Source of the DNA: a virus
UHGV virus genome: UHGV-0341486
Strand: one strand, 5' to 3'
Length of the DNA stretch: 34,556 nucleotides
Part shown: piece by piece, positions 13,104 through 14,171 of the stretch
Numbering within the stretch: position 1 is the stretch's first letter
Layout: every line of letters starts with the position of its first letter
The notes under the pieces: model-generated
What the model was told of the DNA's origin: nothing
Databases searched by the model: none
What the model saw: only the letters and a program-made list of their open reading frames with translations
Program-made: the position numbers and the translations under genes

Positions 13104-13129
13104 GGGAGGGCTTAGCCCTCCCTCTTTTT
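13104..13129. terminator. Bidirectional rho-independent terminator between the convergent adhesin and esterase genes (stem GGGAGGGC / GCCCTCCC, loop TTA, then TCTTTTT)
   Basis: 8-bp GC-rich stem plus T-run directly after the adhesin stop; overlaps the esterase stop codon. Confidence 0.8.
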
Positions 13130-14171
13130 ACAGGTTAGCGTTTGGGTTTTGTTGTTGGGGAGCTGTTTTTATAGGCGCTCCCAGGTTTTTAGTAAACCAC
13201 TCAACGACTCTGTTTATAATAATTGGCTGATACCATGTCTTATCGCCATGCTCGGCCCCTTCTACCAGCACGTACTCAGCGTTATCACCGTTCTTCTTCA
13301 ACATCCTGAATAGTTTGGCGCTTTGCTCAGGTGAAACCAGAGTGTCTTTGCTACCATGCATAATAAGAAATGGGGGTTTTACTCCTTTCATATGTCCGAT
13401 TGGACTGGCGTTTAGCGCTTTTTCTTTTGACGCTGTGATGGGGGCTCCCGCAAAATTTCTGAATGCAGGGCCATTGATCATTAAGGCTTCGGTTACGGCA
13501 GGAGAGCGATGAACCTCCTGCACTGATTCAGGGAACCCCTCGCCAATATTCAACAAGTCAGAAATCCCATAAAGTGTGGCAACTGCCTGAACATCTGAGG
13601 ATTGCTGAAGAAAGTCACCTTTATCAAAGGTTTTGTCACCATTTGTAGTTCCCATCATCTGGGCAAGCCATCCACCGGCAGAGTCACCCAGAACTCCGAT
13701 TCTTTGAGGATCAATCCCATAATTGCTGGCATGCTCTCTCAGGTAACGTATTGCAGCTTTTCCATCCTCAACTGGTGCTGGAAATGTATCAGGAATTGTT
13801 CTGTATTCTACAGCGGCCACAACAAAACCAGCTTCTGCCAGAGCCATTCTCATTTCAATAAATTTGTCATGTTCAGAAGACATGAATCCGCCGCCGGGAT
13901 AATAAATAATGGCTGGTTTTAAATCATTTGTTCGCGGGACAAGAACTGACATGTGAAGCTGTCTGACAGAACGAGTTCCTTTTATCTGGGAATAAACAAC
14001 ATCACCAATGAGATCGACCTGGTTTCTGGTCGGTGAAACACTAATGATATCTGCACCCGGGGTGTAACCAGGAAGATTAGTCTGGACAGGTGTTGCACAA
14101 CTCCCGACCGACATGGCCATTGACATACCATACAATAGTGTTGCAGATGATAATATCTTGTTAATTTTCAT
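13128..14171 (-). CDS. Secreted alpha/beta-hydrolase esterase/lipase (347 aa) with N-terminal signal peptide and possible lipobox (…SVGSC)
   Basis: HGGG-type (YYPGGGF) oxyanion motif and GDSAGG nucleophile elbow of the hormone-sensitive-lipase (fold-3) esterase family. Confidence 0.8.
   Translation of the reverse strand: MKINKILSSATLLYGMSMAMSVGSCATPVQTNLPGYTPGADIISVSPTRNQVDLIGDVVYSQIKGTRSVRQLHMSVLVPRTNDLKPAIIYYPGGGFMSSEHDKFIEMRMALAEAGFVVAAVEYRTIPDTFPAPVEDGKAAIRYLREHASNYGIDPQRIGVLGDSAGGWLAQMMGTTNGDKTFDKGDFLQQSSDVQAVATLYGISDLLNIGEGFPESVQEVHRSPAVTEALMINGPAFRNFAGAPITASKEKALNASPIGHMKGVKPPFLIMHGSKDTLVSPEQSAKLFRMLKKNGDNAEYVLVEGAEHGDKTWYQPIIINRVVEWFTKNLGAPIKTAPQQQNPNANL

What the first reader, a model, noticed from the sequence alone, without database searches (positions are those of the whole stretch)
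13128..14171. Signal-peptide esterase/lipase of the HSL (fold-3) family as prophage cargo
The protein has the HGGG-type oxyanion motif (YYPGGGF) and the GDSAGG nucleophile elbow, with an N-terminal signal peptide and a possible lipobox Cys, so it is predicted to be exported. A secreted or surface esterase delivered by a phage could act on host or environmental esters or on envelope components. Its pairing with the adhesin suggests a functional unit.
Basis: partly seen in the sequence, partly recalled or inferred. Interest (0 to 1): 0.45.

Follow-up and report, generated by a model that had tools for sequence, protein, structure and literature searches.

The report
Phage-carried exported feruloyl-type esterase gene
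A lambda-like prophage of E. coli carries an intact, well-conserved gene for an exported serine esterase whose closest relatives cut plant phenolic (ferulic-type) esters; it is an ordinary self-contained phage "extra" gene and is not functionally tied to the adhesin next to it.

Summary
The ORF at 13128-14171 (-) is real. It encodes a 347-aa alpha/beta-hydrolase with an invariant Ser164/Asp276/His308 triad, a GDSAGG elbow and a Y-x-PGGGF oxyanion loop.

Its best family is BD-FAE (PF20434, 5.7e-45), not the canonical hormone-sensitive-lipase (HSL) group: the HGGG histidine is an invariant proline, and the HSL subfamily models score far below their cut-offs. It is 66% identical to a Dickeya protein annotated as ferulate esterase. 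Its nearest relatives (75-80%, E. coli plasmid and contigs) lie directly behind a phenolic acid decarboxylase gene. The most likely activity is therefore hydroxycinnamoyl (feruloyl, possibly also acetyl) ester hydrolysis.

Export is likely. Lipoprotein status is plausible: Cys25 fits the PROSITE lipobox rule and is conserved in the nearest clades. It is unproven, because the strict lipobox fails and the hydrophobic core is weak.

The gene is a roughly 1.3-kb moron (13124-14435) fixed beside ninB in lambdoid phages. It occurs in 681 of 5426 complete E. coli genomes and in isolated coliphages, and is under purifying selection.

The adhesin pairing is not a functional unit. The two genes converge on a shared terminator, and each occurs without the other.

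Verdict: a new member of a known kind, of modest interest.

The parts
13128..14171 (-). Esterase coding sequence, 347 aa. Alpha/beta-hydrolase of the BD-FAE / FaeD-like lineage.
   Evidence: ORF. Pfam BD-FAE scores 5.7e-45 over residues 80-290. PHROG 3341 'esterase' scores 1.9e-129. AF2 model has pLDDT 85.3. dN/dS is 0.05-0.11 against diverged relatives.
14097..14171 (-). Codons 1-25: predicted signal peptide (MKINK + uncharged ILSSATLLYGMSMAMSVGS) ending at Cys25 (TGT, 14099-14097), the candidate lipid-attachment or +1 residue.
   Evidence: Sequence. Rule-based check. Residues 1-30 have low pLDDT. Cys25 is present in 44/44 IMG/VR copies and at the aligned position in the 75-80% identical E. 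coli paralogues. Relatives at <=72% identity have SPase-I-type signal peptides at the same place.
13680..13682 (-). Codon of the catalytic nucleophile Ser164, within GDSAGG (residues 162-167).
   Evidence: Invariant in 121/121 sequences. Aligns with the nucleophile-elbow motif (GDSSGG / GFSSGG) of PDB 6NKF, 6MLY and 6XYC. 6XYC is described as a truncated carbohydrate esterase from gut microbiota, matching the BD-FAE paper, whose catalytic serine is Ser128.
13344..13346 (-). Codon of catalytic Asp276, within HGSKD.
   Evidence: Invariant in 121/121 sequences. Aligned to the Asp of the HGxxD motif in 6NKF, 6MLY and 6XYC.
13248..13250 (-). Codon of catalytic His308, within GAEHGD.
   Evidence: Invariant in 121/121 sequences. 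Aligned to the His of 6NKF, 6MLY and 6XYC.
13884..13904 (-). Oxyanion-loop motif YYPGGGF (residues 90-96). Pro92 occupies the position of the His in HGGG.
   Evidence: Y90, P92, G93-95 and F96 are invariant or nearly so in 121 sequences.
14172..14435 (-). 264-nt upstream segment specific to esterase-bearing phages. It holds a weak SD (AAGG, 14185-14182) and the only promoter-like candidate, an extended -10 TGaAATAAT at 14304-14296.
   Evidence: Homology with DLP12-type prophages that lack the esterase starts only at 14436. The segment is present in 44/44 viral copies. GC is 37.9%. The standard scan found no consensus sigma-70 site on this strand; a relaxed scan gave the one candidate. It has no RNA structure signal (z -0.43) and no Rfam hit.
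13103..13123 (.). GC-rich hairpin (GGGAGGGCTTAGCCCTCCC) between the two convergent stop codons. It is a bidirectional terminator and the boundary between modules.
   Evidence: 9-bp stem with 7 GC pairs, found on both strands, with a T-run on the + strand. Homology with phage Perceval ends at 13124. Junction-search breakpoints fall at 13124 and 13130.

Best explanation
The gene encodes a Sec-exported serine esterase of the BD-FAE / Dickeya FaeD-FaeT lineage. It uses a Ser164-Asp276-His308 triad and a PGGG oxyanion loop.

Its most likely substrates are hydroxycinnamoyl esters. These include feruloyl or p-coumaroyl groups on plant arabinoxylan or pectin fragments, and soluble esters such as chlorogenic acid. 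It may have side activity on acetyl esters, as in BD-FAE.

In this E. coli/phage clade the ordinary signal peptide of the family has been replaced by one ending in a conserved cysteine. The mature enzyme is therefore probably lipid-anchored, and Ala at +2 would send it to the outer membrane. Alternatively it is cleaved after VGS and released into the periplasm.

The gene is a self-contained moron about 1.3 kb long: a 264-nt AT-rich leader, the ORF and a shared terminator. It is inserted antisense to pR transcription between the replication genes and ninB of lambdoid phages, so it would be expressed from the lysogen as a lysogenic-conversion function.

Shown here: the ORF, fold, triad, family, mobility, moron limits, purifying selection, and independence from the adhesin. 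Inferred: substrate class, export route, lipidation, and expression in the lysogen.
For: Family and chemistry:
- Pfam BD-FAE scores 153.9 bits.
- The triad and both motifs are invariant in 121 sequences.
- The AF2 model has pLDDT 85.3.
- The best solved-structure matches are carbohydrate or rumen esterases: 6NKF (TM 0.74, 33% identity), the BD-FAE structures 6XYC and 6TKX, and GH43-CE 6MLY.

Substrate class:
- The protein is 66% identical over 327 residues to Dickeya protein P0068, which UniRef names 'Ferulate esterase' and which has a signal peptide.
- It is 64% identical to a signal-less Dickeya undicola paralogue.
- This matches the secreted FaeD and cytoplasmic FaeT pair described for Dickeya.
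- The closest relatives (75-80% identity, E. coli) lie 13-33 nt downstream of a phenolic acid decarboxylase gene, with a divergent LysR regulator. This holds on IncF plasmid NZ_CP051739.1 and on several contigs.
- The decarboxylase is the commonest neighbour overall: 14 loci spanning Alpha- and Gammaproteobacteria.

Export:
- Nearly all full-length homologues carry an N-terminal signal peptide at the same place.
- Cys25 fits the PS51257 rule.
- It is present in 44/44 viral copies and in the neighbouring E. coli clades despite divergent flanking residues.

Moron status:
- The limits are 13124 and 14436.
- GC is 44.9% for the ORF and 37.9% for the leader, against 50.9% for the window.
- A terminator hairpin closes the module.
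- The gene is present in 681/5426 complete E. coli genomes at >=95% identity and in 8 sequenced coliphage records.
- dN/dS is 0.05-0.11.
Against: - No enzyme assay exists for this protein or, as far as I could find, for any E. coli member.
- The link to FaeD rests on a database name and on my recollection of Hassan & Hugouvieux-Cotte-Pattat 2011. That paper could not be read.
- The phage copy has lost the decarboxylase partner, with no remnant in the window. Specificity at 64-80% identity is likely kept but not guaranteed.
- BD-FAE-type enzymes can be mainly acetyl esterases on some substrates.
- The signal peptide core is weakly hydrophobic, and the strict lipobox pattern fails at position -2.
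- Cys-to-Tyr minor alleles exist, so the cysteine is not indispensable.
- No consensus promoter was found on the coding strand, only one extended -10 candidate. Expression in lysogens is therefore unproven.
- From my own knowledge, E. coli has no known route to use ferulate, so the benefit to the host is unclear.
Confidence: 0.55

Rival explanations
1. It is mainly an acetyl esterase for acetylated glycans, such as acetyl-xylan or pectin fragments, or host or bacterial O-acetylated sugars. It is not a hydroxycinnamoyl esterase.
For: BD-FAE, the Pfam founder, is bifunctional and removes acetate from birchwood xylan. The solved relatives 6XYC and 6TKX, 6MLY and 6A6O are carbohydrate or acetyl-xylan esterases. 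Weak NCBIfam hits include acetyl esterase, PaeX pectin acetylesterase and AxeA1.
Against: All those NCBIfam scores are far below their cut-offs. The recurrent operon partner is a phenolic acid decarboxylase, which has no role in acetate release. The nearest named homologue is a ferulate esterase.
Confidence: 0.22
2. It is a generic HSL-family lipase or carboxylesterase acting on lipids, host membranes or envelope components.
For: Abhydrolase_3 scores above its Pfam threshold (81.3 bits). It has the GDSAG-type elbow. The closest crystal structure is labelled a lipase (Lip_vut4).
Against: - HSL subfamily models score 32-55 bits against cut-offs of 380-430.
- The HGGG histidine is replaced by an invariant proline.
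- The model shows beta strands, not the two-helix HSL cap, before the core sheet.
- Classical HSL structures match less well (TM 0.56-0.59) than the carbohydrate esterases (0.66-0.74).
- Genomic context is aromatic-acid metabolism.
Confidence: 0.08
3. Esterase and adhesin form a functional pair. For example, the inverse autotransporter could display or translocate the esterase, as ZirT does for ZirS/ZirU.
For: The two genes are adjacent in this window, and the adhesin-esterase junction is intact in 438 of 5426 complete genomes, against 681 that carry the esterase. Inverse autotransporters have been proposed as export platforms for partner proteins.
Against: - The genes are convergent and separated by a terminator.
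- The module boundary lies between them.
- The esterase occurs with ren-emrE-ybcK in place of the adhesin in phage Perceval and in chromosomes. It also occurs with an OMP-barrel plus SMR transporter.
- The adhesin occurs without the esterase.
- The adhesin is often interrupted by IS elements while the esterase stays intact.
- Many of the listed genomes with the junction are ST131-type (O25b:H4) isolates, so the count probably reflects clonal sampling.
Confidence: 0.04
4. It serves the phage itself. For example, it might de-esterify a surface polysaccharide for superinfection exclusion or progeny release, like other phage-borne deacetylases.
For: The gene is conserved at >=97% identity in many lambdoid phages and is always beside ninB. 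PHROGs lists it as a phage esterase family. Mycobacteriophages carry distant homologues.
Against: It is transcribed against the early rightward operon, which is typical of lysogen-expressed morons. Most family members are chromosomal or plasmid genes of plant-associated and gut bacteria with metabolic neighbours. It has no match to known defence systems. Many lambdoid phages with the same nin region lack it.
Confidence: 0.06

Closest known systems
Dickeya feruloyl esterases FaeD (secreted by the Out type II system) and FaeT (cytoplasmic), CAZy CE10
   Same: Sequence identity is 64-66% over the whole catalytic domain to Dickeya proteins, one of them annotated 'Ferulate esterase'. The motifs are the same, and the family shows the same split into signal-peptide and signal-less forms.
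   Different: The window gene is carried on a phage and has a Cys-ending signal peptide rather than an SPase-I type. No faeR-like regulator lies next to it. Its activity and secretion route are untested. The identity of P0068 as FaeD is inferred from its annotation.
BD-FAE (Pfam PF20434; PDB 6XYC/6TKX), a bifunctional feruloyl/acetyl-xylan esterase from a Bacteroidetes PUL
   Same: This is the best Pfam family. It has the same fold and Ser-Asp-His triad.
   Different: Identity is only about 24-26%. BD-FAE has a GFSSGG elbow where this protein has GDSAGG. BD-FAE sits in a xylan PUL, whereas this family sits beside a phenolic acid decarboxylase or on mobile elements.
Lip_vut4 (PDB 6NKF), an esterase or 'lipase' from a goat rumen metagenome
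   Same: It is the closest solved structure: phmmer E 1.6e-37, 33% identity, TM 0.74, with GDSSGG, HGDQD and GAGH motifs aligned.
   Different: It has no signal peptide region in the crystal construct. Its natural substrate was not checked here.
Hormone-sensitive-lipase family (family IV esterases, Pfam Abhydrolase_3; e.g. E. coli Aes, PDB 4KRX)
   Same: It shares the alpha/beta-hydrolase core and the GDSAG-type elbow, and Abhydrolase_3 scores above threshold.
   Different: The HGGG His is replaced by Pro. HSL subfamily models fall far below their cut-offs. The structural match is weaker. Aes matches only residues 83-186 at E 4.7e-9.
Lysogenic-conversion morons of lambdoid phages, such as lambda bor/lom and the NanS-p 9-O-acetyl-sialate esterases of Stx prophages (from my own knowledge, not tested here)
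   Same: It is an accessory gene with its own boundaries, lower GC and presence/absence among related phages, and it encodes an exported protein acting on gut-derived substrates.
   Different: From my own knowledge, NanS-p enzymes have a different fold (SGNH-type) and sit in the late region. This gene sits in the ren/nin region and belongs to another esterase family.

Membership tests
Alpha/beta-hydrolase serine esterases | Ser-Asp/Glu-His triad with the nucleophile in a GxSxG elbow on the canonical fold | tested here: met
   S164 (in GDSAG), D276 and H308 are invariant in 121/121 sequences. They align to the corresponding motifs of 6NKF, 6MLY and 6XYC. The AF2 model has the alpha/beta fold at pLDDT 85. 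The 3D geometry of the triad was not measured because no coordinates were accessible.
Pfam BD-FAE (PF20434) | Whole-protein score above the curated gathering score, covering the profile | tested here: met
   153.9 bits against a cut-off of 26.8, covering profile positions 7-214 of 215.
Pfam BD-FAE (PF20434) | Feruloyl and/or acetyl-xylan esterase activity | not testable with these tools
   Only context and homology are available.
HSL family / family IV esterases | HGGG(A/F) oxyanion motif with the histidine | tested here: not met
   The motif is Y-Y/F-P-G-G-G-F, and Pro92 is invariant in 121 sequences.
HSL family / family IV esterases | Score above the curated cut-off of an HSL model | tested here: inconclusive
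   Pfam Abhydrolase_3 is met (81.3 against 25). The NCBIfam HSL subfamilies GTSAG, GESAG and GCSAG score 54.6, 47.4 and 32.2 against cut-offs of 380, 430 and 410, and LipP1 scores 78.8 against 350.
HSL family / family IV esterases | N-terminal helical cap preceding the core sheet (feature recalled from my own knowledge) | tested here: not met
   The model shows strands at 52-64, 69-79 and 84-91 before the core, and only a 5-residue helix at 28-32.
Dickeya FaeD/FaeT feruloyl esterases (CE10) | Orthology-level sequence similarity to the characterised enzymes | tested here: inconclusive
   Identity is 66% to the Dickeya 'Ferulate esterase' P0068 and 64% to a signal-less Dickeya paralogue. The D. 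dadantii 3937 sequences and the original paper were not available.
Dickeya FaeD/FaeT feruloyl esterases (CE10) | Genomic link to hydroxycinnamate metabolism or regulation | tested here: inconclusive
   The feature is met for the nearest paralogues, where phenolic acid decarboxylase plus LysR lie directly upstream, in 14 loci. It is absent from the phage copy.
Bacterial lipoproteins | Lipobox ending in Cys after a basic n-region and a hydrophobic h-region | tested here: inconclusive
   The PS51257-type rule is met (Cys25, K2/K5). The strict [LVI][ASTVI][GAS]C pattern is not met (V-G-S-C), and h-region hydrophobicity is modest at 1.30. The Cys is conserved in 44/44 phage copies and in neighbouring clades, but rare Tyr alleles exist.
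Bacterial lipoproteins | Lgt/LspA processing (globomycin sensitivity, acylation) | not testable with these tools
   This needs experiment.
Phage moron (lysogenic-conversion cassette) | Presence/absence among otherwise homologous phages with sharp boundaries | tested here: met
   The boundaries are at 13124 and 14436. The nin region occurs without the gene in 2824-681 genomes, including K-12 DLP12.
Phage moron (lysogenic-conversion cassette) | Own terminator and deviant base composition | tested here: met
   There is a hairpin at 13103-13123. GC is 44.9% for the ORF and 37.9% for the leader, against 50.9% for the window.
Phage moron (lysogenic-conversion cassette) | Own promoter active in the lysogen | tested here: inconclusive
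   The standard scan found no consensus site on the coding strand. There is one extended -10 candidate at 14304-14296.

The most novel reading that the evidence does not exclude
This mobile esterase, together with its plasmid-borne, decarboxylase-linked paralogues, may be the unidentified genetic basis of the strain-variable cinnamoyl or chlorogenic-acid esterase activity reported for a few human colonic E. coli isolates. If so, a temperate phage would give gut E. coli, including the pandemic ST131 lineage, a surface-anchored enzyme that releases dietary phenolic acids. That would be a diet-linked lysogenic-conversion trait.
Probability: 0.3. Interest if true: 0.5.

Novelty: new member of a known kind. 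Interest (0 to 1): 0.3.

Why it matters
If the inferred activity is right, about one in eight complete E. coli genomes carries a phage-delivered enzyme that frees ferulic, coumaric or caffeic acid from dietary fibre or chlorogenic acid. Many of the carriers listed in the searches are ST131-type (O25b:H4) isolates.

That would link prophage content to polyphenol metabolism in the gut. It would also offer a candidate gene for an activity so far described only phenotypically in E. coli.

It also gives a clean example of how one cargo gene stays welded to the nin region while the slot next to it exchanges adhesins, transporters and recombinases. Otherwise it is a routine accessory hydrolase, already annotated generically in RefSeq and in PHROGs.

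Tried and rejected
- I searched the window for a remnant of the phenolic acid decarboxylase gene and found none (tblastn, best E 0.61).
- I looked for a riboswitch or structured leader upstream. There were no Rfam hits in the window and no excess folding energy (z -0.43).
- I tested for defence-system membership with PADLOC and found no hit for either the esterase or the adhesin.
- I tried to read the original FaeD/FaeT paper (PMC3028667), but it is not held.
- I searched the literature for a described decarboxylase-esterase operon or a phage feruloyl esterase and found nothing relevant.
- A search of the AlphaFold database clusters was not possible because the library is unavailable.
- The paper on inverse autotransporters in E. 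coli does not cover this phage-borne adhesin.
- I considered an internal start at Met16, 18 or 20, which would give a cytoplasmic protein. I rejected it because the first 25 codons are conserved at protein level in a copy with dS 0.14 (L007), and homologues carry signal peptides at the same position.
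Full report
**Observation.**
The ORF listing gives exactly 13128..14171 on the minus strand, with an ATG start and 347 aa. The protein contains YYPGGGF at residues 90-96 and GDSAGG at 162-167, and has a single cysteine at position 25. It matches Pfam BD-FAE (PF20434) at E 5.7e-45 and Abhydrolase_3 at 1.1e-22. It has 2569 homologues at E<=1e-5. The feature is real.

**Where the window comes from.**
The window is 100% identical to an E. coli chromosome (strain 1442) over 102-34556, apart from an IS element in that strain. It is a lambdoid prophage integrated next to icd. The gene order is:
- int, xis, exo/bet/gam, repressor, and the O and P replication genes;
- a 1183-aa inverse-autotransporter adhesin (9540-13091, +);
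- the esterase (-);
- ybcN/ninB, ninE, ybcO, rusA and Q;
- lysis genes, iss, terminase, head and tail genes.

'Prophage cargo' is therefore correct. The same esterase, at 98.3% protein identity, is present in eight sequenced coliphage records: Lambda_4C10, 4A7 (two records), D2, 1W, 3W, Perceval and PhiR47_2. It is also in 44 IMG/VR viral contigs.

**Chemistry and family.**
- In an alignment of the query with 120 homologues, Ser164, Asp276 and His308 are invariant. So are Gly162, Asp163, Gly166/167 and the P-G-G-G of the oxyanion loop.
- The residue that is His in the HGGG motif of hormone-sensitive-lipase (HSL) type esterases is an invariant proline here.
- NCBIfam HSL subfamily models score 32-55 bits against cut-offs of 380-430.
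- An AlphaFold2 model built on a 66-sequence alignment has mean pLDDT 85.3. Only the first ~30 residues and the C-terminal tail are unreliable.
- Its best solved-structure matches are the goat-rumen esterase Lip_vut4 (6NKF; TM 0.74, 33% identity), the BD-FAE structures 6XYC and 6TKX, the Bacteroides GH43-CE 6MLY, and an acetyl-ester/xyloside hydrolase (6A6O).
- Classical HSL esterases follow with lower TM scores.
- BD-FAE is a bifunctional feruloyl/acetyl-xylan esterase with a Ser-Asp-His triad.

'HSL family' is only loosely right.

**What the relatives say about substrate.**
The top 120 homologues are 63-80% identical. They come mostly from plant-associated Enterobacterales (Dickeya, Pectobacterium, Pantoea, Kosakonia, Rahnella, Klebsiella), Rhizobiales and Sphingomonas, and from gut Sutterellaceae.

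One of them, a Dickeya protein with a signal peptide, is named 'Ferulate esterase' in UniRef and is 66% identical to the query. A signal-less Dickeya undicola paralogue is 64% identical. This mirrors the secreted FaeD and the second feruloyl esterase FaeT of Dickeya (CE10). That FaeT is cytoplasmic is my recollection of the original paper, which could not be read.

The nearest relatives of all (75-80% identity) are themselves from E. coli. They lie 13-33 nt downstream of a phenolic acid decarboxylase gene (PF05870) with a divergent LysR regulator. This arrangement is seen on several contigs and on the conjugative IncF plasmid NZ_CP051739.1, where RefSeq annotates 'phenolic acid decarboxylase' followed by 'alpha/beta hydrolase'.

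Across all fetched loci the decarboxylase is the commonest neighbour. It appears in 14 loci, always upstream on the same strand. The hosts include Serratia, Symbiopectobacterium, Mangrovibacter, Martelella, Azospirillum, Acinetobacter and Aeromonas.

An exported esterase that liberates ferulic or p-coumaric acid, paired with a cytoplasmic enzyme that detoxifies those acids, is a coherent two-step unit. This is the main basis for assigning hydroxycinnamoyl-ester specificity. The phage copy carries only the esterase. DNA similarity to the plasmid-type loci stops about 10 nt upstream of the ATG, and there is no decarboxylase remnant.

**Export.**
Almost all full-length homologues have an N-terminal signal peptide ending a few residues before a conserved LPGY motif. 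In relatives at <=72% identity it is a normal signal-peptidase-I type, for example ...AIAS|EKHNLPGY.

The phage clade and its nearest E. coli relatives instead end in a cysteine: SVGS-C, STG-C or SAG-C.
- For the window protein, the PROSITE-type lipobox rule is met.
- The strict [LVI][ASTVI][GAS]C pattern is not met.
- The h-region is only moderately hydrophobic, at 1.30.
- The exact window protein is on at least 1000 contigs.
- All 44 viral copies have Cys25.
- Cys-to-Tyr alleles exist as rare variants (P0001 on 4 contigs, plus P0005 and P0140).

I rate export as likely (about 0.8) and lipid anchoring as plausible (about 0.55-0.6). Ala at +2 would imply outer-membrane sorting, which is textbook knowledge and not tested here.

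**Anatomy of the mobile unit.**
Comparison with phage Perceval shows 98.7% identity from the Q-proximal nin region through the esterase, down to window position 13124, four bases past the stop codon. Homology is then lost until the P gene.

On the other side, DLP12-type prophages that lack the esterase, including K-12, share sequence only from 14436 onward. The unit is therefore 13124-14435, made up of:
- a 264-nt AT-rich leader (37.9% GC);
- the ORF (44.9% GC, GC3 38.8%, against 50.9% for the window);
- a GC-rich hairpin at 13103-13123, shared with the convergent adhesin gene.

The leader always travels with the gene (44/44). It has no RNA-family match or unusual folding. It contains no consensus sigma-70 promoter, only an extended -10 candidate at 14304-14296.

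The gene is antisense to the early rightward operon. This fits expression from the lysogen, although expression itself is unproven.

dN/dS is 0.107 against an Escherichia sp. copy and 0.05-0.09 against the plasmid-type paralogues. The gene is intact in 43/44 viral copies. It is therefore maintained by selection.

**The adhesin pairing.**
The esterase is in 681 of 5426 complete E. coli genomes, at >=99% identity in 635 records. The adhesin-esterase junction is intact in 438 genomes. Many of the listed carriers are ST131-type (O25b:H4) isolates, so that count probably reflects clonal sampling.

Three other arrangements exist:
- P-ren-emrE-ybcK-esterase, in Perceval and in chromosomes;
- P-OMP barrel-SMR transporter-esterase;
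- P-adhesin-ybcN with no esterase.

Among the 44 viral contigs the split is 26 with the adhesin, 14 with ybcK and 4 with the third arrangement. The adhesin is frequently broken by IS elements while the esterase stays whole.

Together with the convergent orientation and the terminator between them, this argues against a functional unit. The slot between P and the esterase is simply a cargo hot spot.

**Comparison with what is known, and novelty.**
RefSeq calls the protein 'alpha/beta hydrolase' (WP_000700202.1). Phage records call it 'esterase' or 'alpha/beta hydrolase'. PHROGs has it as family 3341, 'esterase'.

I found no functional study of it. This analysis adds four things:
- the family refinement to the BD-FAE / FaeD-type lineage;
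- the decarboxylase linkage of its nearest relatives;
- the switch to a Cys-ending signal peptide in the E. coli clade;
- the exact moron limits and the independence from the adhesin.

It is a new, phage-borne member of a known kind of enzyme.

The most interesting reading still open concerns human colonic E. coli. Three isolates were reported to hydrolyse chlorogenic acid (Couteau et al. 2001, as cited in PMC10340781 and PMC4335975). As far as I know, no gene has been assigned to that activity. This mobile esterase is a candidate. I put that at about 0.3.

**Verdict.**
- The best explanation is an exported, possibly lipid-anchored, feruloyl-type carbohydrate esterase carried as a lysogenic-conversion moron.
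- Interest is modest (0.3).

Noticed in passing
window 1-101 versus 102 onward: The first 101 bases match the icd region of strain 1442 in reverse orientation, while 102-34556 is colinear and 100% identical. This suggests an inversion or rearrangement breakpoint right beside the prophage integrase end.
   Followed up: no
window 9540-13091 (+): This is a 1183-aa inverse-autotransporter (intimin/invasin-like) adhesin carried by the prophage. It has an IAT beta-domain plus five or more Big_1/Invasin_D3 repeats. It falls below every named NCBIfam adhesin cut-off and matches PHROGs of unknown function. It is found in 561 complete E. coli genomes and is often split by IS66/IS1 elements. It is an independent module from the esterase.
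   Followed up: partly
window 9291-13123, and L126 6045-8100: The slot between replication gene P and the esterase is a cargo hot spot. It holds the adhesin in 26/44 viral contigs, ren-emrE-ybcK (large serine recombinase) in 14/44, and an Opacity/OmpA-like beta-barrel protein plus an SMR transporter in 4/44.
   Followed up: yes
L088 (Escherichia phage PHB10, MK524177) 4001-4897: A second, independent phage capture of the family. This is a 73%-identical copy whose annotated CDS (290 aa) aligns only from about query residue 32, so it appears to lack the signal-peptide region. It sits in a metabolic cluster (amidohydrolase, gluconolactonase-family, aromatic alcohol reductase, regulator), again just upstream of rus and the antiterminator.
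   Followed up: partly
L087 (E. coli IncF plasmid NZ_CP051739.1) 5899-8047; L003-L006: A LysR / phenolic acid decarboxylase / esterase cassette occurs on a conjugative E. coli plasmid and on IS-flanked contigs. I could not find this mobile hydroxycinnamate-handling unit described in the literature.
   Followed up: partly
window 14097-14099 (codon 25): There is a Cys/Tyr polymorphism at the candidate lipidation site. Tyr occurs in rare alleles of the phage clade (P0001, 4 contigs) and of the plasmid-type clade (P0005, P0140). It arose independently by a single G-to-A change.
   Followed up: partly
window 14175-14180 (-): A minimal ATG-TAA start-stop pair lies 3 nt upstream of the esterase ATG, downstream of the weak AAGG Shine-Dalgarno sequence. 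It may be coincidental or a translational-coupling element.
   Followed up: no
window 14558-14581 (+) and 14470-14495: A terminator-like hairpin with a T-run lies just upstream of ybcN/ninB on the + strand, at the position where lambda has tR2 (my own knowledge). A perfect 8-bp palindrome, CACCGGAG...CTCCGGTG, lies about 70 nt before it.
   Followed up: no
window 18289-18582 (-) and 19063-19389 (+): An iss/bor-type serum-survival lipoprotein gene and a small TonB-family ORF lie in the late region. The annotation comes from the identical strain 1442. These are further lysogenic-conversion candidates in the same prophage.
   Followed up: no
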